Part shown: positions 4,959 through 55,665 of the stretch, piece after piece | Layout of the letters: each line of letters opens with the position of its first letter | Numbering within the stretch: position 1 is the first letter of the stretch | Assembly (NCBI GenBank): GCA_028707125.1 | Contig: JAQTUX010000002.1 | Span: forward strand, 80,355 to 144,354 | Length of the DNA stretch: 64,000 nucleotides | Direction of reading: 5' to 3' | DNA from: Candidatus Omnitrophota bacterium | Lineage (GTDB): Bacteria; Omnitrophota; Gorgyraeia; Gygaellales; JAQTUX01 | The notes under the pieces: generated by a model | Told to the model about the DNA's origin: nothing | The model's database searches: none | Seen by the model: only the letters and a program-made list of their open reading frames with translations | Made by a program: the position numbers and the translations under genes

Positions 4959-6454
4959 CTGAATGAATCAAACCCTGCGAAGATATTGAATCTGGTCTTC
5001 AACCTGTAAAACATCTTTATCGCCGCCCACTCTAAAGGCATAATAAAGAAATCGTACTTGACCCGTAAGGCGGCTATCCGGCGCAGCATTCTATAGAAGA
5101 AACCCTTATAGCCATTACTGAACCTGCGTTCCAGTGACTTTGAAGGAAAGGCCAACGGATAAAGGTATTTAACACACATATTGATCTTATCCAGATACGC
5201 GTTGTTTACCCAGGGGGTATTCACCGTAAGGATACTCCAATCCTGCCAATCTTCCAGCTTCTCCGGGACCCTGAGGCCTTTTTTAATAGACAGATCTAAA
5301 AGCGGAGTGCCGGGATAAGGCGTATAGAGAAAAGGCGTGAACTGATGGTCGGGAAAACGTGATTTTATATCCTTGATCAGTTTCAAACTGCGCTGAAGGT
5401 CTTTCTCCGGGTCAAGAGGAAACCCCGCGATCATAAAAAACTCGGATACGATCCTGTGTTTATCCAGTATTTCAGCGGCCTTGACAATATCTCCGGGCCT
5501 TATCTTTTTATCTATAAGATCCAACACATCTTCATCCCCTGTTTCGGCGCCTATATATAATTTGGCGCAGCCGCTCTCTTCCAGTAAAGATATCAAGCTT
5601 TCCGGAAAGCGGTTGATCTGATCCACCCTGGCATCGGTAGCCCATTTGATCCTGATACCGCTGTCAATTATCTTACGGCAAATATCCTCCGCCCGTTTAA
5701 GGTCCACGAAAAAGTTATCTTCGGCGAATGTGATGCCGTCTATCTTATACCTTTTGACCAGCGTATTTATCTGAGCTGATAAGTTATCCGCGCTGAGTCC
5801 GCTCCATCTGCGCTTATAAACCTCCGGCGTGCTGCAAAATCCGCACGCGTAGGGACAGCCCTGGGAAGAATTCCAAAATATTGTCCTGCCGCCTAAAGGG
5901 GTCGTAAATATATATTTCTCAAAATCAAACAGGTCAAATGCCGCGGGGCCGAATTCATTGATATCCCGGAATTGACGCTGATCATTACGCACAACCCTGC
6001 CCTGCCTCTTATATGCTATGCCGTCGACAGACTCCAGGCCCAAACCATGGCTCAAGGCATATGGCAATTCCTTGATGGTCGCCTCTCCCTGGCCTATTAC
6101 TACAATGTCGATATTCTCATTTGCCAATGTCTCCTCCGGTAATATGGACGGATGCCACCCTCCCCAGACCACCGGCAATTCCCCGTTTATTTTTTTTACT
6201 AATGATGAGGCCCTTAGCCCGCCGGCTATCTGATATCCGGTCATGGAACTTACGCCGAAGAATAACGCCTCGGGCAACGCCTGCTTTAAACCATCGATAT
6301 AGTTCTCTTCCATGCGCTCGTCTATAATGACGACTTTATATCCCGCGTTTTTCAGCTCTGAGCCGATCTTAAGCAAAGGAAGCGGGATATTCTTGTTTAT
6401 ATTATCCCTTTCTGTCTTAGGGTAAAATAAGATAATGGTATGCTTGCGGCTCAT
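4955..6454 (-). CDS. B12-binding domain-containing radical SAM protein
   Basis: N-terminal cobalamin-binding Rossmann region (VVWGGWHPS...IDIVVIGQGEATI) followed by CxxxCxxC (GCPYACGFCST). Confidence 0.85.
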   Translation of the reverse strand: MSRKHTIILFYPKTERDNINKNIPLPLLKIGSELKNAGYKVVIIDERMEENYIDGLKQALPEALFFGVSSMTGYQIAGGLRASSLVKKINGELPVVWGGWHPSILPEETLANENIDIVVIGQGEATIKELPYALSHGLGLESVDGIAYKRQGRVVRNDQRQFRDINEFGPAAFDLFDFEKYIFTTPLGGRTIFWNSSQGCPYACGFCSTPEVYKRRWSGLSADNLSAQINTLVKRYKIDGITFAEDNFFVDLKRAEDICRKIIDSGIRIKWATDARVDQINRFPESLISLLEESGCAKLYIGAETGDEDVLDLIDKKIRPGDIVKAAEILDKHRIVSEFFMIAGFPLDPEKDLQRSLKLIKDIKSRFPDHQFTPFLYTPYPGTPLLDLSIKKGLRVPEKLEDWQDWSILTVNTPWVNNAYLDKINMCVKYLYPLAFPSKSLERRFSNGYKGFFYRMLRRIAALRVKYDFFIMPLEWAAIKMFYRLKTRFNIFAGFDSFR

Positions 6455-10308: not shown

Positions 10309-12294
10309 TTAATAAAGTTTAGGAATTAAATCTATTTGGGCGAGTACTTCATCAAGGTTGAAACCTATCAAATAGCTGAAATATTCCAATACTTCGTAGC
10401 GAGGTTGATTATCGATCCCTACTAATCTCAACGCCTCATCTCTAGTAAGCAGGCCCTCTCTGATCTGATTAGACCGGAAGTTATCAAATTCTGAGAATCC
10501 GGCAACTGTATAGTAGATATAGTTTGTAAAGGCGGTCTGTCCATCCCCCATCCTCCATTGATTCGGGCCATAGGCTTCATAGACCTGCCAATTATATTCC
10601 CTTCTCAGGACATCTTCCATCTGCCTTTCATTCCACGGCAGATACTCATAGAGATATAAAAAGTCGTCCTTCTGTATAAAGGTAGTAAAATATGACCTTA
10701 CGCTGTCGAGAAATGACTCATTTATATAGCGGGGATTCTTAAGGTATTGGAGCATATAATACAGCGCCAATCGCAATTTTACAGTTGTGCTATAGTGATA
10801 TGTCCTGGCAGTCCTTGAAGTGTTCGCGTTAGCGTCTACTCCGCAAAAACCCACAAAGAATTCCCTTTGTTCCAGAAGATATCCAGAGCAAAAAACAGTC
10901 AATCCTGCATTGATCTCGCGGCGCAACTGCCGCCCAAAATGGTAAAAGTCTTTATCGCCAGCCATAAATAGGGGGACAATACCGAGCTGCGGATCTTTTA
11001 ACCACGCATAAATATTCTTTCTTATATGGCGCCTCTTCTTCTGCAGGTCAGGTGACCTGATAATATGTTCAATCCCAAGTTTACCGCAGATCCTTGCTTG
11101 ATTACGGCGGGATGCATCAGTGGTAAGACCCCAATCATAAGTATAGGCTATCGGATTCATACCATACTTTGTCTTGAGGATATGAAGACCGTAGCAACTG
11201 TCTCTTCCCCCGCTTAAGCCGACCAGGCAATCGGGGCTCCCGTCTTTTGAACGGTATTTCTCAAGAACTCTTTCCAGCTCTTCACTGCCTTTAAATCTCT
11301 GCCTTTCATACCTCCTGCAGAAATTACAGACACCGTCTTCATCAAATGAAATAAAAGGGTATGTGGAAGGAAGGACGCACTTCGTGCATCGCCTTAAACC
11401 TGCGGTATCAGGCCTGGTCTCACGGATATAGAATATACTCCCCCTGGCCTCCGGCTGGTTACCCGGAGCATTGATTTGCTCATTTAACCTGAACTTCTTT
11501 ATTGTACCATCTTCAATTTGCGCCCCGTATCCCGCCTTAATCTGTAATATATTCGAACTCAATGAAGAATCAAATATATCGCTTTTCTTCATAAAATCCA
11601 TTAATATTCTATTCTCGGAAGCGAATACAACGTTCCCGGACTCAATGTCCTCCAGGTAATAGAGCGAACCGGTATTAGTGGCAATGACAAGATTCCTTTC
11701 TGAATTGCACATAAGCGCGAGGGAAGCCGAGCCCTCGATTTCGCCAAATACTTGTGAAACAGAAGATACAAAATTGCCCGTTTGCTGATAGACGGCATCA
11801 AGCCGCGATAGAAATAATCTTGTATCACTCTGAACCAATCCTCCTTCTGCGCTGATAGAGAGCCTGCCCTTAGAACTGTTTTTAAGATTATATTCGTCTT
11901 TGACTAAATTTTCTGCATTTGAAATGAGTCCGTTATGAACGCCTACAAAACTCCCCGACCTCACAGGTTGATTATTGTCGTAAATAGCATGGGAGCCATT
12001 GGTCACGAGGCGGCATTGGCCGATTACCGCTAAAGATAGTCGCATTCCTGCGGGATTATTATGGTCAAAATATGCGGATTTGAGCGTGTTTCTGAATTCG
12101 GGCATTTTCAAGAAAACGGACGGTTTTACTACCCTGCGAAAAATCCGGATCTCATCATGCGAGAGCACGGCCATTCCCGCTGAATCCTGGCCACGGACCT
12201 CGGAAAGCCGAAATAACAACTTGATGTCATGCTCCAATGTATCATGAGTACTCGACTTCTTATCTCTTATAGTTATACCGAATATACCGCACAT
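10309..12294 (-). CDS. Class-II glutamine amidotransferase fused to N-acetyl-sugar amidotransferase (PseA/WbuX-like PP-loop ATP pyrophosphatase)
   Basis: Starts MCGIFGI (Ntn Cys2). Central zinc-ribbon (CTKCVLPSTYPFISFDEDGVCNFCRRYE) followed by PP-loop SGGRDS (LVGLSGGRDSCYGLHIL). This matches the LPS / flagellin-glycan amidotransferase family architecture. Confidence 0.7.
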   Translation of the reverse strand: MCGIFGITIRDKKSSTHDTLEHDIKLLFRLSEVRGQDSAGMAVLSHDEIRIFRRVVKPSVFLKMPEFRNTLKSAYFDHNNPAGMRLSLAVIGQCRLVTNGSHAIYDNNQPVRSGSFVGVHNGLISNAENLVKDEYNLKNSSKGRLSISAEGGLVQSDTRLFLSRLDAVYQQTGNFVSSVSQVFGEIEGSASLALMCNSERNLVIATNTGSLYYLEDIESGNVVFASENRILMDFMKKSDIFDSSLSSNILQIKAGYGAQIEDGTIKKFRLNEQINAPGNQPEARGSIFYIRETRPDTAGLRRCTKCVLPSTYPFISFDEDGVCNFCRRYERQRFKGSEELERVLEKYRSKDGSPDCLVGLSGGRDSCYGLHILKTKYGMNPIAYTYDWGLTTDASRRNQARICGKLGIEHIIRSPDLQKKRRHIRKNIYAWLKDPQLGIVPLFMAGDKDFYHFGRQLRREINAGLTVFCSGYLLEQREFFVGFCGVDANANTSRTARTYHYSTTVKLRLALYYMLQYLKNPRYINESFLDSVRSYFTTFIQKDDFLYLYEYLPWNERQMEDVLRREYNWQVYEAYGPNQWRMGDGQTAFTNYIYYTVAGFSEFDNFRSNQIREGLLTRDEALRLVGIDNQPRYEVLEYFSYLIGFNLDEVLAQIDLIPKLY

Positions 12295-19431: not shown

Positions 19432-21219
19432 CTAAATCCTGAACTGGATATCATATAGCCTTCTGTATAACCCGTTTCTCTCCAGCAGTTCCGCGTGCCT
19501 TCCGGACTCTGCCACCTTGCCCTCTTCTAAAACAATAATATTATCCGCGTGCACTATGGTTGAAAGCCTGTGCGCGATGGCTATGACCGTACGTTCTCTT
19601 GCCAGCTCGTCAATCGCCTCCTTAATTAATCTTTCCGTCTCGGTATCAAGGGAACTGGTGGCCTCGTCTAAAATCAATACCTCAGGATTATGTATTATTG
19701 CCCTTGCGATGGAAATCCTTTGTTTCTGTCCGCCGGACAACCGGACGCCTCTTTCTCCCAGTACGGTATCATAGCCGCTGGGAAGCCCTGTTATAAATTC
19801 ATGTGCATTAGCCGCCCTTGCGGCCCTGAATATTTCCGTATCAGGTATGCCATCATGCCCATATGCTATATTATCCTTAACGCTGGCATTGAAAATAAAG
19901 GTGTCCTGAGACACAAAACCGATTTTTCTCCTCCAAACCCTCAGATCAAGCGCTTTCAGATTCACTCCGTCAACCAGTATCTGCCCCAACTCCACATCGT
20001 AGAATCTGACGATCAAATTAATTATGGTGCTTTTACCTGCGCCTGAAACCCCCACGAATGCGGTCATTTTTCCCATGGGAATCTTGATGTTCAGTTTATT
20101 TAAAACATATCTATCCGCATTATCGTAAGAAAAATAGACATCCCTGAATTCTATGGAATCACGCACCTTATCAATCTTCTTCTGTCCGCTGATTATCGTT
20201 CTTTTTCCCTCCCTATCATACATATCTTCGTAATTTTCGAAAGCCGCCAGCCTGCTTATCGCCGTAGAACGGTATGTATTCAAGCTGTTTAATTGAGTTA
20301 GCATCCTCGCGAGAACTAGCAAATATGTGGCAATAAAAGGGAATGATCGCGCCATATCAATCTTTATTACATTGATAAGCGCAAGGAAACATAAGAAGAT
20401 CAGTCCAAAAATTAGCGCTTCGGATAAAGGTATGATGAGATGTATGTTTTTATTGGTCTGATAGTGTAAAAGATACAGCTTCCTGGTCGCATTATTAAAT
20501 CTGCCCTTCTCCAGATCTTCTGTGCTGCAGCTCTTTATCAGCGCCATGCCTCCCAATATCTCCATTAACTTATGATTATACTCTTTGATTGACTCTGATA
20601 TGCTTCTTCCGATCCGCTTAATGTTCTTCATAATTAATTCAATGGGCATTAAAACGGCTGCGGTCAAAAGAAAAACTATTATACTTGCCCTCCACGATAT
20701 CAAGAACAAAATAATCACATATGCCAGTATTCTGGCAAGAACCGCAACGAAGGTAAGCACGGCCAATATAAAATCACCCATACGCTCTGTTTCGGCATTA
20801 ATGACCCCTATGATATTGCCCGTCTTTACGCCGTGGAAAAATTGTATATCGTACTCTATGAGATTACCCATAAGGTTTATTCTAAGATCCCTGATGGTGC
20901 TAAATCTTAATTTAGCGATCAGTATATTCGAAAGATATAAAAAGACATTTTTCATAACCAGCATCAGAAATATAAATATGAAAATCAGCAGTATTGCGTC
21001 TGACTGATTTAAGGACGCAAATGATATAACTGATCCTTTTAAAAATGGCAATTCTTGAAATAAACCTGTTTTATTGCTTATCATGCTCTGAATAAGGGGG
21101 ATAAGCATGCCGAAGCTGGCGCCTTCAAAGAAGGACGATGCCATAATTGAGAATAGGGCGCTCCAACTCAATAAAGGATATCTTCTTAGATATTTTAATG
21201 TGATGGATAAGAACTTCAT
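19432..21219 (-). CDS. ABC transporter permease/ATP-binding protein (MsbA-like exporter)
   Basis: Six-helix TMD followed by Walker A (GVSGAGKST), ABC signature (LSGGQKQRISIARA) and Walker B (ILDEATSSLD). Confidence 0.85.
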   Translation of the reverse strand: MKFLSITLKYLRRYPLLSWSALFSIMASSFFEGASFGMLIPLIQSMISNKTGLFQELPFLKGSVISFASLNQSDAILLIFIFIFLMLVMKNVFLYLSNILIAKLRFSTIRDLRINLMGNLIEYDIQFFHGVKTGNIIGVINAETERMGDFILAVLTFVAVLARILAYVIILFLISWRASIIVFLLTAAVLMPIELIMKNIKRIGRSISESIKEYNHKLMEILGGMALIKSCSTEDLEKGRFNNATRKLYLLHYQTNKNIHLIIPLSEALIFGLIFLCFLALINVIKIDMARSFPFIATYLLVLARMLTQLNSLNTYRSTAISRLAAFENYEDMYDREGKRTIISGQKKIDKVRDSIEFRDVYFSYDNADRYVLNKLNIKIPMGKMTAFVGVSGAGKSTIINLIVRFYDVELGQILVDGVNLKALDLRVWRRKIGFVSQDTFIFNASVKDNIAYGHDGIPDTEIFRAARAANAHEFITGLPSGYDTVLGERGVRLSGGQKQRISIARAIIHNPEVLILDEATSSLDTETERLIKEAIDELARERTVIAIAHRLSTIVHADNIIVLEEGKVAESGRHAELLERNGLYRRLYDIQFRI

Positions 21220-22748
21220 GATAATCTCTTAATGATAAAACCTTTGATTTTGGACAATTTCTCAAATACCGCTCTCTCTAAAGAGATAAAGAGAAAGAAA
21301 TTGAAGCGCATTCTAAACGAAGATACTATCTCCCTTATCCTCCCTTTAAAACTGGGATTATAGAAGGCGATCTGCCTATAGGCATATACCATTGCATTCA
21401 ATCTGCGGGGATTATCGATCCATTTATAATTATCAAATGATTCATAACCAAAGCTATCTACAAATTCCCTTTCAGAAAGCTTTGCCCACTCTTTAAGGCT
21501 GCGAGGCGGAGAATAGCCGTAATTATCCACGATTTCCTTATAAAGCGGTGACCCTGGGTATGGCCTGAAAGGAGTAACAGAAACACAGCTTATCTTTACC
21601 ATGTTCCTGATTTTCAATGCAAGACGATAAGTATTTTCAATATCCCTTTCTGTCTCTCCGGGAAGCCCGACCATAAAATTCATTTTAGGAATGATGTTGG
21701 CTCTGGACAGCATCTCAGCCGCTTTAATAATTTGCTCAACCTTAAGATTTTTTTTCAATTTATCCAGCATTGACTGTGAGGCGCTCTCCACTCCCATCGC
21801 CGCAACAACCATGCCTGAACGGCTTAATCTCTTTACTGTCTCAAAATCGACATAATTATCGCTGAAATAATCCGCCCTTGTCTGAGGCCGCCACTTGATA
21901 TTCAAATTTTCCTTCTCTAACAGATCAAGGAATTCAAATGTTCTTTTCCTGTCAACAAAGAAGTTTTCATCTAATGGCTGGATGAAATCAGCGCCGTAAT
22001 TGCTCTTGAGAAATTTAATCCTCTCTACGATCTCTCCCGCCTCGCGAAAACAGCATTTCTTTCTGACTATCACGTTAATACAAAAGGTGCATTGGTAAGG
22101 GCACCCCAACGCGGTTACAATGGGATAGGCCCTGGTATCTTTGTACTGCCCGCTATAGAAATCCTCGATAGCAACGCTATTCCTTCTGGAGTATCGTTCA
22201 TGGTCTAGTAATGAAAAATCAATAAAAGGGGTGTTACTAAAATCGTCCTTGCATTTATTTTCTTCATTTGCTTTTATGCGCCTGCCTGTTTTATAAAATA
22301 TCCCGGGGACGCAAGAGAGATCATCTCCGCGGGAAATGGTTTCACCCAATTTAACAATGGTAGCAGCGGCATCGTTGACAACGGCTATGTCAACCGCAGG
22401 GTCTTCGACTGTCTGCTCGGGGAAAAGTGTCGGATGCACCCCTCCCCAGGCAACCGCTGCATCGGGGAACTTTGCCTTTATGGCCCGTGATACAAAATAC
22501 GACCAAGGCAGTTGTATCGTCATCACGGAAAAACCTACAAACGCCAGGTTTTCATCAATCTCGGACAGTATAGCTTTTGTCGCATCCCCAATATCCAGAT
22601 AAGTGCCGTCAATCACCTTGACCTGAAATCCGGCCCTGTCCAGAATAGTAGCCAATATCATTATTGCCGTATTCGGATAAAGGCCGTAATCCGGACGCCT
22701 GTGAAAATGAATTCCAGGATTAACTAAAATAACCTTGTTTTTTCGCAT
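21216..22748 (-). CDS. B12-binding domain-containing radical SAM protein
   Basis: B12-binding N-terminus (AWGGVHPTL...DIAVVNDAAATI). CxxxCxxC (GCPYQCTFCIN). Confidence 0.85.
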   Translation of the reverse strand: MRKNKVILVNPGIHFHRRPDYGLYPNTAIMILATILDRAGFQVKVIDGTYLDIGDATKAILSEIDENLAFVGFSVMTIQLPWSYFVSRAIKAKFPDAAVAWGGVHPTLFPEQTVEDPAVDIAVVNDAAATIVKLGETISRGDDLSCVPGIFYKTGRRIKANEENKCKDDFSNTPFIDFSLLDHERYSRRNSVAIEDFYSGQYKDTRAYPIVTALGCPYQCTFCINVIVRKKCCFREAGEIVERIKFLKSNYGADFIQPLDENFFVDRKRTFEFLDLLEKENLNIKWRPQTRADYFSDNYVDFETVKRLSRSGMVVAAMGVESASQSMLDKLKKNLKVEQIIKAAEMLSRANIIPKMNFMVGLPGETERDIENTYRLALKIRNMVKISCVSVTPFRPYPGSPLYKEIVDNYGYSPPRSLKEWAKLSEREFVDSFGYESFDNYKWIDNPRRLNAMVYAYRQIAFYNPSFKGRIREIVSSFRMRFNFFLFISLERAVFEKLSKIKGFIIKRLS

Positions 22749-47611: not shown

Positions 47612-48289
47612 TCATCTCTCTGTCTTTTGGGATAAGAATGCGCAAAGCATGGTCTTTGATCTTCCCCTGAGAAAAGGGGGCGCGAATTTGTTCAGTCCCG
47701 TAAAAGGAAGAATACGCCCATAAAGAAATTGTAGCCCTTCGGGCAACCTCCATATATATGGCGATTTATTTACCGTCCACAGGCCAACGAACGCTTTCTT
47801 AAAATCAAAAGAATCCATCAGCCAGACAATATTTCTGGGATTATAGGGCCTTACGTGAGTATGGTCATCAAAAAAACCGAACTTAACCTGGTCAATGTTA
47901 GGAGTTATAATGACAACAATGCCGTTATTTACCAGGACCCTTTTTATCTCACCTAATAGGTTTGAGGGGTCGCTTATATGCTCCAGAACGGAATATAGGA
48001 AGGCGATATCAAATTGTCCGTCTTCGTAAGGAAGCTTATCATGTTCAAAATTGACATCGTCGTTTATATCAATTCCCGCCGCCTCAATACCCGCCCTTTG
48101 ACAACATTTAACAAAACTGCCGTCCCCTTGCCCCACATCAAGTATCTTCCCCCGAAACTTACGGTGAAGGACAAAATCAAAGAAAATCTCCATCGTAGAG
48201 AAGACCCTCTGATTCAAAGACATATTGTCGCCTTTGGCCTTCTCTTTGATCCATTTCTTATGATAAATGACCTTCAAATCCCGGCTCAC
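47612..48289 (-). CDS. Class I SAM-dependent methyltransferase
   Basis: ILDVGQGDGSFV motif I and DIAFLYSVLEHI motif II/III. Confidence 0.75.
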   Translation of the reverse strand: MSRDLKVIYHKKWIKEKAKGDNMSLNQRVFSTMEIFFDFVLHRKFRGKILDVGQGDGSFVKCCQRAGIEAAGIDINDDVNFEHDKLPYEDGQFDIAFLYSVLEHISDPSNLLGEIKRVLVNNGIVVIITPNIDQVKFGFFDDHTHVRPYNPRNIVWLMDSFDFKKAFVGLWTVNKSPYIWRLPEGLQFLYGRILPFTGLNKFAPPFLRGRSKTMLCAFLSQKTER

Positions 48290-48323
48290 TTCAGACCCCC
48301 CCGGCCTATTTAGCGCTGTTAGA

Positions 48324-48914
48324 TTAGGTCTGGATAACCAGACTTTCTTCTTCTGTATCCTTATTACTGCCTCTTTGTGAAGCTAGGGCGTTGCTCAGCA
48401 ATCCCGAGTTAAATAAGTCAAACAGATTCTGTGCCTTCTCTTTAATACCCTTGAGCTCTACCAGCCGCTGCTTGAAGATCTTTGCCGACTCCTCATCTCC
48501 ATTATTGCCATCCGGGCCGGCCGACTCAAACACACTGTCTGCTGAACCTATCATATCTTCCACTTCTGATAAGCGGCCCTGCACTAATGACCTCACTCTT
48601 TCCATGATCACCTTATAAATATCACTCTCAGCCTCATAATAGTCCTTCCTTGAACCCCTCATCCAGACCCTCTTTACCGCCCCGTATCTTTCAAGCGCCC
48701 GTATATTAACGCTGACGCTCCCCTTGCTGATCTTCAGGGCCTCTGCCATCTCATCAAGAGACATTACCCTGCCGTTAAGATAAAGAAGCGCGTAAAGCTG
48801 TGCCATTATATTATTCAGCCCAAATTTACTGCATATCTGGTTTATCTTATTCATGAAAACATTCTGCGCCTGCGTCAACTTATCTTCCATAATATTCTCC
48901 TTTATATTGTTCAT
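48324..48914 (-). CDS. GbsR/MarR-family winged-helix transcriptional regulator
   Basis: LYALLYLNGRVMSLDEMAEALKISKGSVSVNIRALERYGAVKRVWMRGSRKDYYEA closely parallels the GbsR signature (YAYLYL..PMSLD..A..L..SKGAVS...L...V.KVW.KGSRKD.YEA). Has an acidic C-terminal tail. Confidence 0.8.
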   Translation of the reverse strand: MNNIKENIMEDKLTQAQNVFMNKINQICSKFGLNNIMAQLYALLYLNGRVMSLDEMAEALKISKGSVSVNIRALERYGAVKRVWMRGSRKDYYEAESDIYKVIMERVRSLVQGRLSEVEDMIGSADSVFESAGPDGNNGDEESAKIFKQRLVELKGIKEKAQNLFDLFNSGLLSNALASQRGSNKDTEEESLVIQT

Positions 48915-48938
48915 TTAGAACGTTTAGAATGTTCTAAA
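48914..48938 (-). promoter_or_regulatory. Palindromic putative operator (TTTAGAAC-N9-GTTCTAAA, with nested TTTAGAA-TG-TTCTAAA) overlapping the regulator start codon
   Basis: Read directly from the sequence atTTAGAACgTTTAGAAtGTTCTAAAta. The 8-bp arms are perfect inverted repeats. Confidence 0.45.
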
Positions 48939-48965
48939 TATAGCACATAACTGCCCTACTGTCAA
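48937..48965 (-). promoter_or_regulatory. Sigma70-like promoter: -35 TTGACA, 17-bp spacer, -10 TATATT (minus strand)
   Basis: Minus-strand reading gives ...TTTGACAgtagggcagttatgtgcTATATTtagaac.... The -10 hexamer lies about 22 nt upstream of the regulator ATG, with no Shine-Dalgarno between them. Confidence 0.45.
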
Positions 48966-48982
48966 ATACTTACTTCTCTGAT

Positions 48983-50275
48983 TTATACTTTGTTTGTTAG
49001 TTCTCTCCGCCATAGGCCTAAGGCGGATAGCAGGAAAAACAAGGGCATAACTGCAAGGCGGTAACGTATCATTGCGGGGATAAAGGAGTGCAGGACAACA
49101 AAAGAAATAATAAATACGGCGACTAAGAGCGCCGGCTCACTTCTCTTTCTTATGGCGGTGTAAATCCCTATTAAGAAAAACGGCAGCATTGCGGCGTATA
49201 ATATCATGTCATTTACGCGGCAGAAATAAACCGGTAGATTATTCCAGGCCAGATTACCTGTCTTGCCTATAACCCGCTCATTCGGATAGCCTACCCTCCA
49301 CATATTCCAGAGGGTCGCGGGAACCGCCCTCAAGAAATGCCCGGGGTGGCTTTTGATAAACTGGACTGCATGTTTCATATAGGCCCTGCCCTGCAAGTAT
49401 TCGGTAAGCACGTGTGACTCTGTTGGGTTAATCTTTAATTCTGATAATAACGCATCGATACCGGGATAATCCTCGCTGATAAATCCGGGGTCTCTTTTAT
49501 AGAGCGCGAAGTCCCGGCTGTGGGCGTTATAAAGCAAAAGGGCATGATATCCGCCGTTTGTGCTGGTCAGAAAAAAACGGCCTGACCGCAGATAATTTCT
49601 CATACCCCAGGGCGCCAGGATCAAGGCCGCCCCCACCGCAAAGGCAAACGCCCCCCTGAACGACTTCTTCTGCTTAAGAAATATGAAGAGATATAAAGGA
49701 ATGACCGGCAGGACAACCGACTTTATAAGGGAGGCCGCGCCCGCGCTCAGGCCCGCCCAAAACCCGCTGCCCGCGTAATGGCCGCTGTTAAACCATCTGA
49801 TAAGGGCATGGATAAACAAAAGGATCAGGAAAACCATCAATGTTTCTCTCATCAGGGTGCCCGCGCTATACCAAAAGGGATAATAAAATATGGAGAACAC
49901 ATACGCGGTCATAGCCGCCTTCCGCGAACCGATCTGCCTACCAATGCCATAGACAAGCAGCGTTGAAAAAGCGCTTATCATCGCCTGAATGTATAAGACA
50001 AGAGTTAGATCGTCTCCGAACACGCTGAAAATCCCGGCTAAAAATAAAGGATATACGGGCGGTTTGTCTGCGGTCGGCTGCGGATTCAGATAAGAGCCGC
50101 GCTGTAAACTTTTCGCCAGATTAACATAGTCGGCCCTATTGCCCACAAGGTTCTCATAGGGATCATATCGCGCGTCGTGCGCCATTACCACCACTGTAGA
50201 TATGCGGACCACGCAGGCAACAATAAAAAGCAGCAATATTATTAAATTAAGGTTATACCTGTATTTTTTTTCCAT
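48983..50275 (-). CDS. GT-C-type membrane glycosyltransferase (ArnT/PMT/GT39-GT83-like)
   Basis: 430 aa, at least 10 TM helices, N-terminal periplasmic-loop region (DARYDPYENLVGNRADYVNLAKSL) typical of PMT_2/ArnT-like proteins. Lies directly upstream of a GT2. Confidence 0.55.
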   Translation of the reverse strand: MEKKYRYNLNLIILLLFIVACVVRISTVVVMAHDARYDPYENLVGNRADYVNLAKSLQRGSYLNPQPTADKPPVYPLFLAGIFSVFGDDLTLVLYIQAMISAFSTLLVYGIGRQIGSRKAAMTAYVFSIFYYPFWYSAGTLMRETLMVFLILLFIHALIRWFNSGHYAGSGFWAGLSAGAASLIKSVVLPVIPLYLFIFLKQKKSFRGAFAFAVGAALILAPWGMRNYLRSGRFFLTSTNGGYHALLLYNAHSRDFALYKRDPGFISEDYPGIDALLSELKINPTESHVLTEYLQGRAYMKHAVQFIKSHPGHFLRAVPATLWNMWRVGYPNERVIGKTGNLAWNNLPVYFCRVNDMILYAAMLPFFLIGIYTAIRKRSEPALLVAVFIISFVVLHSFIPAMIRYRLAVMPLFFLLSALGLWRRELTNKV

Positions 50276-51014
50276 CGGGATTAAATATCGGGAATTTGGC
50301 TATTTTGGATCTCTGCAGCGATAACTTTAAGGCAGTTGCTATTACACCAATACCGTAAACAATGCTCCTTCTAAAATTAATAGAAGATGAATCCTTGCTG
50401 TACATTGAGGGGGAGCTTATCTCCCCTATCCTGCAACCAAAATATATCGCCTGCGCCAGGATCTGGTTATCAAACACAAAATCATCCGAGTTTTCCAGTA
50501 TAGGCAGCATCAGAAGAACCTCTCTGGTAAAGGCGCGGAAACCGGTATGATATTCAGAGAGCTTAGCGCCCAAAAATACATTTTCTATGAAGGTAAGCGC
50601 CCTATTGGAGATATATTTGTATAGAGGCATGCCTCCTTTCAAGGCATATCCTCCCAATATGCGGGAACCCAACACTATATCAAACATACCCGAGGTCAAT
50701 AAACCGGCCATTGCGGGTATAAGCTTGGGAGAATATTGATAATCCGGATGCAGCATTATGATGATATCGGCATTCCGCCTTAAGGCCTCTGCATAGCAGG
50801 TCTTTTGATTGGAGCCATAACCTCTGTTTTCACCGTGCACATAAACATCCAGGTTCAATTTCTTTACCGTCTCCACGGTGTCATCCTGGCTGTGGTCATC
50901 AACAACGAGGACCTCATCTACTATATCTTTCGGGATCTCCCTGTATGTCTTCTCTATCGTCATGCCGGCATTATATGCCGGCATAACTACAACGATCTTC
51001 TTATTCATTAACAT
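50253..51014 (-). CDS. Glycosyltransferase family 2 (polyprenol-phosphate sugar synthase-like, soluble)
   Basis: IVVVMPAYNAGMTIEKTYREIP...VLVVDDHSQDDT GT-A N-terminus. Similar to the Dpm1/ArnC catalytic domain. Confidence 0.8.
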   Translation of the reverse strand: MLMNKKIVVVMPAYNAGMTIEKTYREIPKDIVDEVLVVDDHSQDDTVETVKKLNLDVYVHGENRGYGSNQKTCYAEALRRNADIIIMLHPDYQYSPKLIPAMAGLLTSGMFDIVLGSRILGGYALKGGMPLYKYISNRALTFIENVFLGAKLSEYHTGFRAFTREVLLMLPILENSDDFVFDNQILAQAIYFGCRIGEISSPSMYSKDSSSINFRRSIVYGIGVIATALKLSLQRSKIAKFPIFNPDGKKIQV

Positions 51015-51159
51015 ATCATTACCCCGCCGGAATTCCCCTGATGTATTTCTCTAATATCCCCGCGACAAACCCATGCCCATAAGGTGCCCTCTTCGTTAAT
51101 CTTGAAAATGTTGGAATATATGTTATCCTGAATGTCATTTACTTTGAAATATTGAATAA

Positions 51160-52407
51160 TTACCGAGTCTTTCTACGCAGATTCACAAGTTGGAAGAAAA
51201 TATGGATACCGTATGCCGATATCATCATTGTCAATGGCTCTATCATCCAGCGATGCCTTATCTCTATATAAAAAATGCTGTTGGCAAGCGATACTGTCAT
51301 AAAGAAAAGAAACAGAAAAACAAGAGGGGCGGGATCTATGTTATTCCTTCTGATAAAGTATATCCCGATCAGGAAGAATGACGACATAACGCCGTATAAA
51401 ATCTGATACGGCAGAAGCCATTCTCCCGGGTAAAGCACGCCTGTCTGCGGCGCGAAAGACCAAAAGTAGATGAATTTCTTAACAGTATTCTTAAAAAACA
51501 GCGCGGGATCATTCTTAATGTATCTTAATGCCTCGGATTTAAATAGATCGCGCTGCCCTATCTCATCGAGGCCTGAAAGCCTTCTCTGAAAATCTGCTCC
51601 CGACAGCTCAATCATGTTCCTGCCGTCTATATCTAATGATGTCCCTGAGGAAAGAGGGCTATTGCCTCTCCAGAGATGTTCCGCGGAGGTCGTAGTCACA
51701 AAGATAAAACGATCATAGATCTTATACCCGCGATATACCCAGGGAGATATGCAGACCACAACAGATAAAACTATCGTCAAGGACCTGGCAATGATCCTGG
51801 ATAAATGCTCTCTCTTCACAAGAAGATAGACAGCATAACACGGGATAATAAAAATCATGGTGGGGCGCAATAATACCCCTAACCCTGTCAAAATACTCGC
51901 GGCGAAAAAATGTCCGGGTTTATGGACACAACAAGTCAACAGATACATGATAATGACAATAAAGAGCACCACTAATGACAACTCATGAATTTTTGTAGCA
52001 TAGACAATAAGCCCGGGATGAAGACAATATAACAACCCGGCAATTGTTGCCGTCTTCTCATTAAACAGGTATTTCGCTAAATTGAACAGCGGGATAATAA
52101 CCAGGGAAGCTACGGCGGCTTGCACCAACTCCAATATAAAATAATTGGAGTTGGTAAGGTAATGGATCAATAATTCAAAATAAACATAAAGAGGCGATGA
52201 GCCGAAAAAGTAATGGTCTGTCCCCAGGTAATTAAATACATGCCCTTTACCTGAAAGGATATTCAGCGCCATCACATCGTATTCCCATGCCTCAGGGTTA
52301 ATGTGACGGCCTAAAATCAATATGGCCGCGACCCGCGGAATGAAGGCCAAAACCGCCAGAATGGCTATTTTCCCGGGTATATCTTTTCTGATTTTGATAA
52401 TCTCCAT
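51160..52407 (-). CDS. GT-C-type membrane glycosyltransferase (GT39/ArnT-like), second copy
   Basis: 415 aa polytopic protein. First loop (RHINPEAWEYDVMALNILSGKGHVF) and TM layout resemble ArnT/PMT-family proteins. Confidence 0.55.
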   Translation of the reverse strand: MEIIKIRKDIPGKIAILAVLAFIPRVAAILILGRHINPEAWEYDVMALNILSGKGHVFNYLGTDHYFFGSSPLYVYFELLIHYLTNSNYFILELVQAAVASLVIIPLFNLAKYLFNEKTATIAGLLYCLHPGLIVYATKIHELSLVVLFIVIIMYLLTCCVHKPGHFFAASILTGLGVLLRPTMIFIIPCYAVYLLVKREHLSRIIARSLTIVLSVVVCISPWVYRGYKIYDRFIFVTTTSAEHLWRGNSPLSSGTSLDIDGRNMIELSGADFQRRLSGLDEIGQRDLFKSEALRYIKNDPALFFKNTVKKFIYFWSFAPQTGVLYPGEWLLPYQILYGVMSSFFLIGIYFIRRNNIDPAPLVFLFLFFMTVSLANSIFYIEIRHRWMIEPLTMMISAYGIHIFFQLVNLRRKTR

Positions 52408-53075
52408 ATCCCTTTGACCGTTCTAATTATATCCCATAACCTCACTTTGGATTTACCTTGCATCCGGCGAAAATGAGAGACCGGGACCTCTTTAACACGT
52501 AAACCAAGCTTATGCATCTTGACAAAAATCTCCAGATTTACCACATAATCCTTAGATGTAATCTGGACTTTATCAAAAATCCTCTTATGAAAAAGCTTAA
52601 AGGCGCAATTAATATCTTTTACGGAAACCTTAAAGATTCTGCGCGCGATCATGCCGTATATGGCGGCTGTAATCTTTCTGAGAACGGGGTCGGACCGCTT
52701 CTCCCTGTACCCTACTACCGCTTCATAATCGTCAATATATTCAAGCAGGCCGCTTAACTCCCTCATATCAAACTGCATATCGGCATCGGAGAAGAACACA
52801 AGGTCAAAAGAGGCGCTTTTAATCCCGTCCCTTAAGGCATAACCATATCCTTCATTTTTCTTTTTAGATATAACCTTGACTTTATCGAATTCATTTTGCA
52901 GTTCATGGCAGATCTTGGCAGTTGAATCCGTAGAGCCGTCATTTACAATGATTATCTCAAAAGACCTCAGTATTCTATTGAGTGTATTATGGGCATTGCT
53001 GACGCAGGCCCTGATATTGCCTTCTTCGTTGTATGCCGGAAATATAACCGAGGCCTTATTCACGACTTTTTCCAT
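52365..53075 (-). CDS. Glycosyltransferase family 2 (polyprenol-phosphate sugar synthase-like)
   Basis: ASVIFPAYNEEGNIRACV...IIIVNDGSTDST...SDADMQ GT-A motifs. Confidence 0.8.
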   Translation of the reverse strand: MEKVVNKASVIFPAYNEEGNIRACVSNAHNTLNRILRSFEIIIVNDGSTDSTAKICHELQNEFDKVKVISKKKNEGYGYALRDGIKSASFDLVFFSDADMQFDMRELSGLLEYIDDYEAVVGYREKRSDPVLRKITAAIYGMIARRIFKVSVKDINCAFKLFHKRIFDKVQITSKDYVVNLEIFVKMHKLGLRVKEVPVSHFRRMQGKSKVRLWDIIRTVKGIWRLSKSEKIYPGK

Positions 53076-53769
53076 TGCCCGCCCATTTTTGTATCTGATA
53101 CTTCAACCGGTTCATCGGCGATTGAATATTGGCCCTTGTGAATCCCACGCTCTCCGGATATGGAAAGTTGCGGAAAAGTTCCGAATAATCCAGGCCTGGC
53201 AGCTCCTTTAAATATACAATATTACAATCAAGAGATTTTAATGTATCGATATCCGCGATGTTGCCGTTACCGTCCTTAAAATAAACTCCGCGGTATGGGT
53301 CAAATACGCGCCATTTATTATCCAATTTGACAAAGGACAAAGCAATCCTCCTTGGGCCCACCCCCATAAAGAATGCGTCAAGATTGAGATAATTACAGAG
53401 CGTGGTAAAAACATCCGATGCCTGATCCGATGCGCCGTAGCCCCTTACAATAATATGCCAGACATGGTCGTCTATGACAGGGAGCCCTTCCGGAACCTTC
53501 AGAATATTATTATACGTCCATTCGAATAATCTAAGGGCTTTTTCTTTATCGCTATATGCATCCCCGGCCACCCTGTCGGCTAACCACTTATAATTATAAT
53601 GCCTGTCATAAAAATCCAGGATTTTAAGATACAACGGGACCTTAATAAGTTTTACCTCTCCATTAATCCCCTGTTTACTGCCGACCTTTATATTAAGAAA
53701 GATAAACAGGCATATAAGAATAATGGAGAAAGCGGTAAGAATAATTAACTTTGATTTATATTTCCTCAT
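53056..53769 (-). CDS. Hypothetical membrane-anchored protein (possible degenerate transglutaminase-like fold)
   Basis: N-terminal TM helix. The region ALRLFEWTYNNI...RGYGASDQASDVFTTLCNYLNLDAFFMGV...WRVFDPYRG is reminiscent of a transglutaminase-like core but lacks the Cys/His catalytic residues. Confidence 0.35.
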   Translation of the reverse strand: MRKYKSKLIILTAFSIILICLFIFLNIKVGSKQGINGEVKLIKVPLYLKILDFYDRHYNYKWLADRVAGDAYSDKEKALRLFEWTYNNILKVPEGLPVIDDHVWHIIVRGYGASDQASDVFTTLCNYLNLDAFFMGVGPRRIALSFVKLDNKWRVFDPYRGVYFKDGNGNIADIDTLKSLDCNIVYLKELPGLDYSELFRNFPYPESVGFTRANIQSPMNRLKYQIQKWAGNGKSRE

Positions 53770-55665
53770 CTAATCTATGAATTGACGATGCCAAAGCTCA
53801 AGCATCAGCAAAGACCAGAGTTGAAATGCGTAATCTTTTTTCTGATTAATATGCGCGTCAACCATATCTTTAATCGCTTCTGGCCTGAAATACCCTCTTT
53901 TAAATGACGACGGAGATAACAACGTCTCCTTAAGAAACCTCTTCAGCTCTCCCCTGAACCATTTTCCCACCGGCAGGCCGAAGCCCATCTTACTCCTATG
54001 GATGTTTTCCCGGGGGATCACGCCGCCTATCGCCTTCTTTAATATGTATTTTTTAGTAAATCTTCTTATTTTGTATTGCTCCGGTAATTTAGCCGCAAAC
54101 TCCATTAGTTTATGATCCAGGAACGGCGAACGCGCCTCTAAAGAATTTGCCATGCTTGCTATATCCATCTTAACAAGAAGATCTTCGGGAAGATAGGTAT
54201 TGACATCGGCCATCAACAGCCTGTCGATGAACCCCGCGCTGTTGGCGCCGCCTATATATGACTCGATTAATTTGATGGGGTTGTCGGTCCTGACCATATT
54301 TAGAAAATCATCTGAACAGGTTGTTTTTTTCAGGCCATCATCAAATACGCTTACCCAGCGCAGGTAGCGCCTGCCGGCAGATAACGGCGCCGCATCAAGA
54401 AACCGCCTGATCCGCCTTATTTTATTTTTATGGCTTAGTGAGTCCGGCAGGAAAGCGGCTACCGCCCCGACCGCATATTTAACGGCTCCCGGCATTGCCT
54501 GATAGGCCTGCGCTGCCAGCATTGCCTGATAGCGTTCATAACCCGCGAAGGACTCATCCCCCCCGTCTCCGCTCAGGGCAACGGTAACATACTGCCTTGT
54601 ATCCCGGGAGACATAATACGTCGGGATACAGGAAGAATCGGCATACGGCTCGCCGTACCGCTCCACCAGCAACGGCAGCACATCCAACGCCTTCGGTTTC
54701 ACAATGAATTCGTTGTGATCGGTAGAAAATCGCTCCGCGATGCGCCTGGCGTATTTTAGTTCATCGTAATCCCCTTCTTCAAAACCGACGGAGAATGTCT
54801 TGACCTTCCTGTCCGACAATTGACTCATTAAGGCCACAACCGTGCTGGAATCTATCCCCCCGCTTAAAAACGCCCCTAACGGAACATCGCTGCGCAGCCT
54901 TATATCTACCGCCTCCCTGAGAAGCCTTATGACTTCATCCTGAGCGTCTTCTTCGGATATGCTGATCTTCTCTGAATAGTCGAGCTGCCAATACCGCTTA
55001 ATCCGCATATCGTTATCCCTTAAGGTAAGAATGTGTGCCGGCGGCAGTTTAAAAACATCCTTATACACCGTCAAAGGGGACGGTATATAGCCAAAGGTCA
55101 GGTAGTAATTGATCGCCTCATAATTAACTTCCCTTGTTATCATCCCGCTCTCCAGAATAGAGCGAAATTCAGAGGCAAAACAGAATCTTCCGTTCTTATT
55201 GTAATAAAGCAACGGCTTCTTGCCCAGACGGTCTCTGGCCAGCAAAAGCTGCCTGCGGCTGTTATCCCATATCGCAAAAGCAAACATACCGCGCAGGTAC
55301 CGCACGCAATCCTCGCCGTACTCCTCATATAAATACAAAAGGCTCTCGGTGTCTGACTGCGACCTGAATCTATACCCTTTCTTCTCTAACGCGGCCCTTA
55401 ACTCTCTATAATTATAAATCTCTCCGTTAAAAACAGTCCAAACGGTTCCACTTTCATTTGACATTGGCTGATGCCCCGTGGATGAAAGGTCAATAATGCT
55501 AAGCCGCCTGTGCCCCAGGCCCAGAGAGACCTTGTCTCCGTTATTTATGAATATACCGGCATCATCCGGCCCTCTATGCCGCATTGCATCGCGCATCTTC
55601 TCCAGGACCGGCCTGTCCACGCCTTCCCCTGCATTATATTTTATAATTCCGCAAATACCGCACAT
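53770..55665 (-). CDS. Asparagine synthetase B-like glutamine-dependent amidotransferase (second paralogue)
   Basis: MCGICGII start and FLSGGIDSS PP-loop. Confidence 0.85.
   Translation of the reverse strand: MCGICGIIKYNAGEGVDRPVLEKMRDAMRHRGPDDAGIFINNGDKVSLGLGHRRLSIIDLSSTGHQPMSNESGTVWTVFNGEIYNYRELRAALEKKGYRFRSQSDTESLLYLYEEYGEDCVRYLRGMFAFAIWDNSRRQLLLARDRLGKKPLLYYNKNGRFCFASEFRSILESGMITREVNYEAINYYLTFGYIPSPLTVYKDVFKLPPAHILTLRDNDMRIKRYWQLDYSEKISISEEDAQDEVIRLLREAVDIRLRSDVPLGAFLSGGIDSSTVVALMSQLSDRKVKTFSVGFEEGDYDELKYARRIAERFSTDHNEFIVKPKALDVLPLLVERYGEPYADSSCIPTYYVSRDTRQYVTVALSGDGGDESFAGYERYQAMLAAQAYQAMPGAVKYAVGAVAAFLPDSLSHKNKIRRIRRFLDAAPLSAGRRYLRWVSVFDDGLKKTTCSDDFLNMVRTDNPIKLIESYIGGANSAGFIDRLLMADVNTYLPEDLLVKMDIASMANSLEARSPFLDHKLMEFAAKLPEQYKIRRFTKKYILKKAIGGVIPRENIHRSKMGFGLPVGKWFRGELKRFLKETLLSPSSFKRGYFRPEAIKDMVDAHINQKKDYAFQLWSLLMLELWHRQFID

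What the first reader, a model, noticed from the sequence alone, without database searches (positions are those of the whole stretch)
48914..48982. Near-consensus promoter plus palindromic operator driving an embedded GbsR-family regulator
This 69-nt gap is one of only two sizeable non-coding stretches in 64 kb. On the minus strand it contains TTGACA-N17-TATATT, followed directly by the inverted repeat TTTAGAAC-N9-GTTCTAAA (with a nested TTTAGAA-TG-TTCTAAA). The repeat abuts the regulator's ATG, and there is no Shine-Dalgarno sequence.

GbsR-type repressors are known to sense choline and related metabolites. Here the regulator heads the acyl-ACP / nonulosonic sub-operon. The operator position, overlapping the +1 site and the start codon, predicts autorepression and a small-molecule-responsive switch controlling surface glycan decoration.
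Basis: seen in the sequence. Interest (0 to 1): 0.6.

Follow-up and report, generated by a model that had tools for sequence, protein, structure and literature searches.

The report
Self-regulated promoter-operator inside a glycan cluster
This gap holds a real internal promoter overlapped by a palindromic binding site, conserved upstream of the same GbsR/MarR-type regulator in many uncultured bacteria; it is an ordinary self-repressing switch, here placed ahead of surface-sugar genes, with no sign that it senses choline.

Summary
TTGACA-N17-TATATT lies at 48965-48937 on the minus strand. It is followed by TTTAGAA-ca-TTCTAAA-cg-TTCTAAA at 48938-48914.

The regulator starts at ATG 48890, not 48914. 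That start has an AAGGAG Shine-Dalgarno sequence (48902-48897). The repeat therefore does not abut the start codon, and the gene is not leaderless.

Comparative data make the element convincing. About half of 87 homologous regulator genes, from Omnitrophota, Elusimicrobia, Anaerolineae and Clostridia, carry cGTTTAGAAcGTTcTAAACg. It usually sits 2 nt after a TTGACA-N17-TATAAT promoter. Six of seven exact copies of that 20-mer in metagenome contigs lie directly upstream of such a gene.

The N9 repeat is that core plus an accessory half-site one 9-bp step further on.

The regulator has the Mj223/GbsR fold but lacks the aromatic cage of the choline-sensing subgroup. In Omnitrophota it sits inside one-strand glycan clusters, typically ahead of NeuB, cytidylyltransferase or sugar-modifying genes.

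Best reading: an autorepressor gating an internal promoter for the downstream acyl-ACP/nonulosonic genes, with an unknown ligand. It is a new member of a known kind, of moderate interest.

The parts
48960..48965 (-). -35 hexamer TTGACA of the internal promoter
   Evidence: TTGACA at the equivalent position in most of 43 orthologous upstream regions.
48937..48942 (-). -10 hexamer TATATT, 17-nt spacer, with TG two bases upstream. Its last two bases are the first two bases of operator half-site 1.
   Evidence: In most orthologues the -10 box ends 2-3 nt before the palindrome; here it overlaps it by 2 nt.
48923..48938 (.). Core operator: palindrome TTTAGAA-ca-TTCTAAA. Half-site 1 is 48938-48932 and half-site 2 is 48929-48923. 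It spans roughly -8 to +8 around the predicted transcription start near 48930.
   Evidence: Exact match. Scores 28.2 of a maximum 35.5 bits on a position weight matrix built from orthologous sites, and is the only strong site in the window. Family consensus is cGTTTAGAAcGTTtTAAACg. The transcription start position is inferred, not measured.
48914..48920 (-). Accessory third half-site TTCTAAA, a direct repeat of half-site 2 exactly 9 bp downstream.
   Evidence: A third half-site at exactly +9 occurs in 15 of 43 orthologous sites, against 0-3 at other offsets.
48897..48902 (-). Shine-Dalgarno sequence AAGGAG, 6 nt before the true start codon
   Evidence: Similar purine-rich (GGAG-like) runs precede the aligned start in many orthologues.
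48324..48890 (-). Regulator gene (188 aa), GbsR/MarR family, Mj223-like fold
   Evidence: Identical to an NCBI Candidatus Omnitrophica protein of 188 aa. 1ku9 is the best PDB hit by sequence (E 3e-17) and by fold (Foldseek E 2.7e-9, model pLDDT 83). Start codon fixed by the alignment.
42419..48289 (-). Tightly packed downstream genes: methyltransferase, FkbH-domain protein, acyl carrier protein, MaoC dehydratase, short-chain dehydrogenase, and an AAC(3)-like acetyltransferase fused to DUF4910
   Evidence: Gaps of 34 nt or less, or overlaps, and no terminator-like site between the regulator and the next gene on the minus strand. Co-transcription is inferred.
37742..42422 (-). Nonulosonic-acid module: cytidylyltransferase, asparagine-synthase-like protein, NeuB, family-2 glycosyltransferase
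   Evidence: In L025 the same four genes (50-69% identity) directly follow the orthologous regulator.
48983..50275 (-). Upstream co-directional PMT_2-type glycosyltransferase. No terminator-like site lies between it and the promoter, so read-through into the operator is possible.

Best explanation
The gap 48891-48982 contains an internal sigma-70-type promoter whose -10 box and start region are covered by the cognate operator of the regulator encoded just downstream.

The regulator is a dimeric GbsR/Mj223-type winged-helix (MarR-superfamily) protein. Its recognition helix (SKGSVSVNIRALE) and wing (GSRKDYYEA) are highly conserved. Two such DNA-reading heads would bind the two 7-bp half-sites TTTAGAA / TTCTAAA, whose centres lie 9 bp apart. 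An accessory third half-site 9 bp further on could recruit or stabilise a second dimer.

Bound at about -8 to +17, the protein would block open-complex formation or promoter escape. It would also act as a roadblock to read-through from the upstream glycosyltransferase genes. The result is repression of its own gene and of the co-directional methyltransferase / FkbH / ACP / nonulosonic-acid genes behind it. Release by an unidentified signal would de-repress this part of the glycan cluster.

Shown: motif presence, conservation of the motif and of its position, co-occurrence with the regulator gene, the fold, and the gene context. Inferred: binding, the sign of regulation, co-transcription, and the existence of a ligand.
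For: 1. Promoter and palindrome are present at the stated coordinates.
2. In 42 of 87 homologous regulator genes, a match of at least 12 of 14 bases to TTTAGAANNTTCTAAA lies within 250 nt upstream. It is usually preceded by TTGACA-N16-18-TATAAT ending 2-3 nt before it. Nucleotide-level conservation gives the consensus cGTTTAGAAcGTTtTAAACg.
3. Across 777 kb of loci there are 66 sites scoring at least 14 bits.
   - 45 lie within 260 nt upstream of a regulator start, and 3 more lie at the start.
   - 13 lie 0.76-3.3 kb upstream of a regulator gene in the same orientation. In the loci I inspected (L058, L069, L011, L007) they head an operon that contains the regulator.
   - Only 3 lie just downstream of the regulator gene.
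4. Independent test: the exact 20-mer CGTTTAGAACGTTCTAAACG occurs 7 times in metagenome contigs. Six of these are immediately upstream of a regulator homologue or its 5' end.
5. The recognition helix and wing are conserved in the same set of proteins across phyla, which parallels conservation of the operator.
6. The fold matches Mj223, the GbsR template.
7. GbsR and OpcR are experimentally shown repressors. They bind AT-rich inverted repeats at or just downstream of promoters and autoregulate (PMC7396694).
8. Only one operator exists in the 64-kb window, consistent with a local switch.
9. The regulator is embedded in co-directional glycan clusters across Omnitrophota.
Against: - There is no experimental transcription start site, binding or expression data for any member of this clade.
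- About half of the homologues show no operator within 250 nt. In several of them the operator lies further upstream; in others the flank was short or an upstream ORF appears to abut the regulator gene.
- The position weight matrix was trained on the same loci it scored. The loci were also chosen for containing the regulator, so only the positional specificity and the 20-mer scan are unbiased.
- In this window the palindrome sits 4 nt closer to the promoter than in most orthologues.
- No ligand pocket has been identified, so the 'small-molecule switch' is conjecture.
- With no terminator upstream, downstream genes may be expressed mainly by read-through.
Confidence: 0.7

Rival explanations
1. 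Same protein-operator pair, but the regulator acts as an activator or dual regulator of the internal promoter, or only buffers its own level with no ligand. It would then not be an inducible repressor of the glycan genes.
For: No ligand site was identified. MarR-family proteins include activators (general knowledge). The accessory half-site arrays in L081, L047 and L037 could serve more complex modes of regulation.
Against: The site covers the -10 box and the start region in the window. In most of the other loci with a site it begins 2-3 nt after the -10 box. That is a repressor position, whereas activator sites normally lie upstream of the -35 box. The promoter is already near consensus, so it has little need of activation.
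Confidence: 0.12
2. The palindrome is recognised by a different, possibly global, DNA-binding protein. Its association with the regulator gene would be incidental to promoters of glycan clusters.
For: Binding was not tested. Three sites (L043, L059, L063) lie downstream of the regulator gene and one 20-mer hit (L083) has no regulator nearby.
Against: Sites track the regulator gene across unrelated cargo: glycan genes in Omnitrophota and an ABC transporter operon in Syntrophomonadaceae. They also track it across phyla. Six of seven exact 20-mers are next to the regulator gene. There are no other copies at other gaps in the 64-kb window.
Confidence: 0.06
3. The repeat acts at the RNA level, as a leader hairpin, attenuator, or terminator for the upstream gene.
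For: The N9 arms can form a 10-bp hairpin of -7.7 kcal/mol.
Against: The z-score is only -1.78, and 9 of 200 shuffles fold as well. The 5' arm overlaps the -10 box, so it would be absent from transcripts that start here. No U-run follows the hairpin. Rfam gives no match even at E up to 1. Orthologues conserve the half-site sequence itself rather than showing compensatory changes, and most lack the third half-site needed for the hairpin.
Confidence: 0.04
4. Chance AT-rich matches in a short gap, with no function.
For: Each motif with 1-2 mismatches is expected about 0.6 times per 64 kb.
Against: The motifs are exact, adjacent and correctly oriented in one of only two gaps. The same arrangement is conserved in dozens of loci from several phyla. 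The N9 repeat is expected 0.02 times by chance at up to 2 mismatches.
Confidence: 0.01

Closest known systems
GbsR of Bacillus subtilis (choline-responsive MarR-type repressor of gbsAB and opuB)
   Same: Same protein family and the same Mj223-type fold template. Both use an AT-rich inverted-repeat operator at the promoter-proximal transcribed region, repress, and autoregulate (PMC7396694, PMC6207618).
   Different: The GbsR half-sites are separated by 4 bp and lie downstream of the transcription start, giving a pure roadblock. Here two heptamers are separated by 2 bp and overlap the -10 box and start site, and some loci have extra half-sites in 9-bp phase. There is no aromatic cage. The targets are glycan/nonulosonic genes, not osmoprotectant genes. 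The CudC model scores 81 bits against a cut-off of 218.
OpcR and OpuAR (GbsR-family repressors of opuB/opuC and opuA)
   Same: Family membership. OpcR also blocks RNA polymerase access by steric hindrance at the promoter (PMC7396694).
   Different: The OpcR operator overlaps the -35 box and has a different spacer. OpuAR responds to choline and glycine betaine through aromatic residues W93 and Y94 (PMC6207618), which have no conserved counterpart here.
CydE-type GbsR-family regulators next to cydAB (sulfate-responsive)
   Same: A precedent for a GbsR-family subgroup without an aromatic cage that uses a non-osmolyte inducer (PMC6207618). The plasmid or chromid GbsR/MarR genes of Ralstonia and Rhizobium are about 29% identical to this protein; I did not check whether they lie next to cydAB.
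   Different: Different gene context and low identity. No evidence that sulfate is the signal here.
Mj223 of Methanocaldococcus jannaschii (PDB 1ku9)
   Same: Closest solved structure by sequence (E 3e-17) and by fold. The helix-turn-helix and wing motifs are shared.
   Different: The function and operator of Mj223 are unknown. The protein here carries a longer C-terminal helical region (helices 133-161 and 164-174).
Classical MarR-family autorepressors (MarR, MepR, OhrR)
   Same: A dimeric winged-helix repressor binds a 16-20 bp palindrome overlapping its own promoter. The fold search returns MepR, NadR and ZitR at E around 1e-4.
   Different: These matches are much weaker than to the Mj223 group (rmsd 16-20 Å against 4.5 Å), because the dimerisation helices are arranged differently.

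Membership tests
GbsR/MarR family (Mj223-like; COG1510-type) | Sequence homology to family members | tested here: met
   PDB 1ku9 at E 3.2e-17 over residues 7-104. Homologues are named 'GbsR (MarR family)' by JGI and 'GbsR/MarR family' by NCBI. Best NCBIfam hit is CudC at E 9e-23.
GbsR/MarR family (Mj223-like; COG1510-type) | Fold: N-terminal helix, winged helix-turn-helix, long C-terminal dimerisation helices | tested here: met
   AlphaFold2 model with pLDDT 83: H2-23, H28-39, H45-52, H56-68, two-strand wing 72-87, H91-123, H133-161. Top Foldseek hit is 1ku9 at E 2.7e-9.
GbsR/MarR family (Mj223-like; COG1510-type) | Binds an AT-rich inverted repeat at its target promoter and represses | not testable with these tools
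   Only the conserved position and co-occurrence were shown. EMSA or reporter assays are needed.
Osmoprotectant-sensing subgroup (GbsR, OpuAR, OpcR, YvaV, CudC) | Cluster of aromatic residues ('aromatic cage') after the wing, near the linker | tested here: not met
   Residues 88-100 read ESDIYKVIMERVR. The only aromatic residue, Y92, varies among orthologues (S, A, T, G, K, N). The positions were taken from OpuAR W93/Y94/N96/R100 in PMC6207618. This is an alignment by position only, because no GbsR sequence was available.
Osmoprotectant-sensing subgroup (GbsR, OpuAR, OpcR, YvaV, CudC) | Reaches the equivalog score of the choline regulator model | tested here: not met
   CudC scores 81 bits against a cut-off of 218.
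Osmoprotectant-sensing subgroup (GbsR, OpuAR, OpcR, YvaV, CudC) | Gene neighbourhood of opu, gbsAB or betaine genes | tested here: not met
   Neighbours are glycosyltransferases, NeuB, cytidylyltransferases, sugar dehydratases and aminotransferases, radical SAM enzymes and ABC-2 exporters.
Sigma-70-type promoter | -35 and -10 hexamers with 16-18 nt spacing, conserved in orthologous positions | tested here: met
   11 of 12 bases match with a 17-nt spacer. TTGACA-N17-TATxAT is found in most orthologous upstream regions.
Sigma-70-type promoter | Mapped transcription start | not testable with these tools
   A start near 48930 is inferred from the usual distance of 7 nt after the -10 box.
Cis-regulatory RNA (riboswitch or leader) | Match to a known RNA family, or a significantly stable and covarying structure | tested here: not met
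   No Rfam match at E up to 1. MFE -7.7 kcal/mol with z -1.78. The sequence is conserved without compensatory change.

The most novel reading that the evidence does not exclude
This regulator and operator define an undescribed subfamily of GbsR-type regulators that spans several phyla and shares one DNA code, GTTTAGAAC/GTTCTAAAC. In Omnitrophota, a phylum of uncultured bacteria, the subfamily has become the dedicated gate of nonulosonic-acid surface-glycan modules. It would respond to a pathway intermediate or an envelope cue rather than to an osmolyte. Several paralogues per genome use the same operator, which would couple separate glycan clusters. Arrays of half-sites in 9-bp phase would allow graded binding by more than one dimer.
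Probability: 0.2. Interest if true: 0.55.

Novelty: new member of a known kind. Interest (0 to 1): 0.33.

Why it matters
This gives a concrete, testable regulatory handle in a phylum with almost no experimental genetics:
- a defined promoter;
- a 16-20 bp operator consensus backed by dozens of orthologous sites;
- the cognate 188-aa protein, which could be expressed in E. coli for EMSA and ligand screening.

It extends the GbsR family beyond osmoprotectant and cytochrome bd control to surface-glycan (nonulosonic acid) clusters. It also corrects a gene start. The mechanism itself, a MarR-type autorepressor on a palindrome at its own promoter, is textbook.

Tried and rejected
1. RNA element. Rfam gave nothing for 48700-49200 at E up to 1. 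The fold is weak at z -1.78. Rejected.
2. Choline or betaine sensing. The aromatic cage is absent and the CudC score is far below its cut-off (PMC6207618). Rejected.
3. Redox sensing through Cys20. The cysteine is invariant among the 34 close homologues. It is replaced by Ala or other residues in L022, L024, L025, L027 and in all distant operator-bearing homologues. Downgraded to a weak lead.
4. Additional operators in the window. A position-weight-matrix scan found only the known site, its overlapping register, and a 10.9-bit hit inside a coding region at 55425. There is no local regulon beyond this promoter.
5. A second regulator copy in the window. There is none.
6. Plasmid collection. It holds only distant GbsR/MarR genes (up to 31% identity), mostly from Ralstonia, Rhizobium and haloarchaea. 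This was not informative, and no osmoprotectant-type GbsR sequence was recovered for a direct alignment.
7. Literature. No paper in the held library links GbsR with Omnitrophota. None of the ten top-ranked hits of a combined GbsR / nonulosonic / polysaccharide search contained 'GbsR'; the co-occurrence of GbsR with those terms was not searched directly.
8. The second gap, 51015-51159. It was inspected and holds no operator and no good minus-strand promoter match. Left unexplained.

Full report
**What is in the sequence**

Read on the minus strand, the stop codon of a PMT_2-type glycosyltransferase (48983-50275) comes first. It is followed by:

...TTGACA(48965-48960)-gtagggcagttatgtgc-TATATT(48942-48937)TAGAAcaTTCTAAAcgTTCTAAAtgaacaatataAAGGAGaatattATG(48890)

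.

- The promoter-like site is the best in 44000-54000, matching 11 of 12 bases with a TG two bases before the -10 box.
- It is the only match with at most 1 mismatch in the whole window.
- TTTAGAA-NN-TTCTAAA (48938-48923) and TTTAGAAC-N9-GTTCTAAA (48938-14) are both exact.
- All large ORFs lie on the minus strand. Only two intergenic gaps exceed 60 nt.

The ORF finder extends the regulator to ATG 48914, giving 196 aa. However, 33 homologues all begin at the position of ATG 48890, with the pattern MxxxL. NCBI's copy of the identical protein is 188 aa. AAGGAG lies 6 nt upstream of 48890.

The gene therefore has a normal Shine-Dalgarno sequence. The gap is 92 nt (48891-48982). The repeat ends 23 nt before the start codon. 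The ATG at 48914 is simply the last A of the third half-site plus TG.

**The regulator**

- Pfam gives only generic winged-helix hits: HTH_24, MarR_2 and TrmB.
- The best NCBIfam hit is the choline regulator CudC, at 81 bits against a cut-off of 218.
- The best solved structure is Mj223 (1ku9), at E 3e-17. Mj223 is the template used in the literature to model GbsR-type proteins (PMC6207618, PMC7396694).
- An AlphaFold2 model (pLDDT 83) shows an N-terminal helix, a helix-turn-helix, a two-strand wing and long C-terminal helices. Foldseek again ranks 1ku9 first, at E 2.7e-9.
- Sources name the homologues GbsR/MarR family.
- A full HMMER scan of 1.84 billion cluster representatives finds 2,097 relatives at E up to 1e-3 and 383 at E up to 1e-10.

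Family-level membership is therefore met. Membership of the osmoprotectant-sensing subgroup is not.

- According to PMC6207618, the aromatic cage lies just after the wing (OpuAR W93, Y94, N96, R100) and is present only in the osmostress-associated subgroup.
- Other subgroups lack it. CydE, for example, uses sulfate as its inducer.
- Here the equivalent stretch is ESDIYKVIMERVR. Its single aromatic residue is not conserved.

**Phylogenetic footprint**

This is the decisive evidence. A scan of GTDB species genomes returned 80 loci encoding relatives. L001-L037 are mostly Omnitrophota. The rest are Elusimicrobia, Anaerolineae, Clostridia, Syntrophomonadaceae and others.

- Upstream of 42 of 87 regulator genes lies a match of at least 12 of 14 bases to TTTAGAANNTTCTAAA.
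- The aligned consensus is cGTTTAGAAcGTTtTAAACg, a 20-bp palindrome with near-maximal information in the heptamers.
- In most loci it is preceded by TTGACA-N17-TATxAT ending 2-3 nt before the palindrome.
- The window follows this plan, except that the palindrome is 4 nt closer and overlaps the last two bases of the -10 box.

The N9 repeat is the core plus a third half-site. That accessory site is real. A TTNTAAA copy at exactly +9 from half-site 2 occurs in 15 of 43 sites (7 of them perfect), against 0-3 at neighbouring offsets. Some loci add direct copies upstream in the same 9-bp phase. L081 has five half-sites in a row.

**Is the regulator the cognate binder?**

Across 777 kb of fetched loci, a position weight matrix finds 66 sites of at least 14 bits:

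| Position of site | Number |
|---|---|
| Within 260 nt upstream of a regulator start | 45 |
| At the start itself (start-codon estimates off by a few bases) | 3 |
| 0.76-3.3 kb upstream of a regulator gene, same orientation | 13 |
| Just downstream of the regulator gene | 3 |
| L082 and L083 (see below) | 2 |

In the loci I inspected from the 13-site group, the site heads an operon that contains the regulator. One example is operator > ABC ATPase > membrane protein > regulator in Syntrophomonadaceae L058 and L069.

These loci were chosen for containing the regulator, so I ran an unbiased test. The exact 20-mer CGTTTAGAACGTTCTAAACG occurs in 7 metagenome contigs. Five are immediately upstream of a regulator homologue. 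One (L082) is upstream of a truncated regulator 5' end. One (L083) is unrelated AT-rich DNA.

The recognition helix and wing (SKGxxSxNIRxLE ... GSRKDYYEA) are conserved across all these proteins, which parallels the conserved half-site. In the 64-kb window the operator is unique.

**Context**

The window is one long single-strand glycan cluster. It contains GT2, GT1 and PMT_2 transferases, sugar epimerases and dehydratases, four B12-binding radical SAM paralogues, three asparagine-synthase-like genes, an ABC exporter, NeuB and cytidylyltransferases.

Behind the regulator come the following genes:
- a methyltransferase;
- an FkbH-domain protein;
- an acyl carrier protein;
- a MaoC dehydratase;
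- a short-chain dehydrogenase;
- an AAC(3)-like acetyltransferase fused to DUF4910;
- then a cytidylyltransferase, an AsnS-like gene, NeuB and a GT2.

In other Omnitrophota loci the regulator is likewise embedded co-directionally. The first downstream gene is one of:
- NeuB (7 loci);
- a sugar 4,6-dehydratase;
- a cytidylyl- or nucleotidyltransferase;
- a DegT aminotransferase;
- a PseB-like Polysacc_synt_2 protein;
- UDP-GlcNAc 2-epimerase;
- a UDP-sugar dehydrogenase;
- an ABC-2 exporter permease;
- a radical SAM/SPASM enzyme;
- sulfate-activation enzymes.

L025 has regulator > cytidylyltransferase > AsnS > NeuB > GT2, at 50-69% identity to the window genes. The window's six-gene acyl-ACP block therefore looks like an insertion between the regulator and a conserved nonulosonic module.

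**Mechanism**

Taking the start as 7 nt after the -10 box (about 48930, inferred), half-site 1 spans -8 to -2, half-site 2 spans +2 to +8, and half-site 3 spans +11 to +17. A dimer bound there would prevent open-complex formation or promoter escape. No terminator-like site separates the upstream gene from the gap, so the bound protein would also obstruct read-through.

This lies between the two experimentally described modes in the family. OpcR occludes the -35 box, and GbsR acts as a roadblock downstream of +1. Both autoregulate (PMC7396694).

I therefore commit to the following reading, with confidence about 0.7: negative autoregulation, plus repression of the downstream glycan genes from an internal promoter, relieved by an unknown signal. 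The ligand is unknown and choline-type ligands are unlikely.

**Rivals**

- An RNA-level role is unlikely. There is no Rfam hit. The hairpin is weak and partly untranscribed, with z -1.78. The sequence is conserved without covariation.
- A different binding protein is unlikely given the co-occurrence data.
- Chance is excluded by conservation.
- An activator or purely homeostatic role cannot be excluded without experiments.

**Novelty**

Within the held library, no paper links GbsR with Omnitrophota. None of the ten top-ranked hits of a combined GbsR/nonulosonic/polysaccharide search contained 'GbsR'. PMC6207618 lists osmoprotectant, cydAB and "no consistent context" subgroups.

This is therefore an uncharacterised subfamily with a newly defined operator consensus and a new target pathway, working by a well-known mechanism. 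It is a new member of a known kind, with interest about 0.33.

Noticed in passing
window 42419-48289, compared with L025 6001-~11500: L025 has regulator > cytidylyltransferase > AsnS-like > NeuB > GT2, at 50-69% identity to window 41694-42422, 39816-41669, 39115-39825 and 37742-39112. The window's methyltransferase-FkbH-ACP-MaoC-SDR-AAC(3)/DUF4910 block therefore looks like a six-gene insertion between the regulator and a conserved nonulosonic-acid module.
   Followed up: partly
window 4955-6454, 21216-22748, 30398-32101, 33165-34691: Four paralogous B12-binding radical SAM genes sit in one glycan cluster. Homologues recur next to the regulator in 16 other loci. Their substrates are unknown.
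   Followed up: no
window 39816-41669, 53770-55665, 60082-61992 (and 10309-12294): Three full asparagine-synthase-like paralogues, plus a GATase-only relative, lie in the cluster. AsnS-like genes also recur beside the regulator elsewhere. They presumably amidate sugars.
   Followed up: no
window 51015-51159: The only other sizeable gap (145 nt) has no operator copy and no good minus-strand promoter match. The promoter-like hits there are on the plus strand. Its role is unexplained.
   Followed up: partly
L081 1290-1350; L047, L037: Arrays of half-sites in strict 9-bp phase. L081 has four direct CGTTTAnAA copies plus one inverted copy, directly abutting the Shine-Dalgarno sequence. This suggests binding by several dimers or cooperative binding in some relatives.
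   Followed up: partly
L058 and L069, 2985-6510: In Syntrophomonadaceae the same operator heads a different operon: an ABC ATPase, a large membrane protein, then the regulator. The operator code is shared across phyla with unrelated cargo.
   Followed up: partly
L007 6559-8343; L014 934-3114; L015 6505-7545: In some Omnitrophota loci the regulator is followed by ATP sulfurylase/APS kinase fusions or by an NMT1-type binding protein, hinting at sulfated glycans. The sulfate-responsive family member CydE makes this a tenuous lead for the ligand.
   Followed up: no
L015 and L023 (same MAG, CAYHAE01); L001 ~230-790 and 3012-3545: Several regulator paralogues occur per genome. In L001 two occur in one locus, and only the first has the operator. 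Cross-regulation between glycan clusters is possible.
   Followed up: no
window 42419-44482: An unusual fusion protein of 687 aa: an AAC(3)-like N-acetyltransferase, DUF4910/DUF2172 (peptidase-like), and a C-terminal HTH_47 winged helix.
   Followed up: no
window 39115-39825: NeuB here is only 236 aa; its Pfam match covers only the NeuB domain. The NeuB-like ORFs called in other loci are 294-357 aa, up to 550 in L006, and 232 in L025. It may lack the C-terminal domain present in those longer homologues.
   Followed up: no
L082 330-~380: A perfect operator is followed by a regulator 5' end (MNEKLIKAQDVFLEKV) that then diverges into unrelated sequence. This is probably a chimeric assembly or a disrupted gene.
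   Followed up: partly
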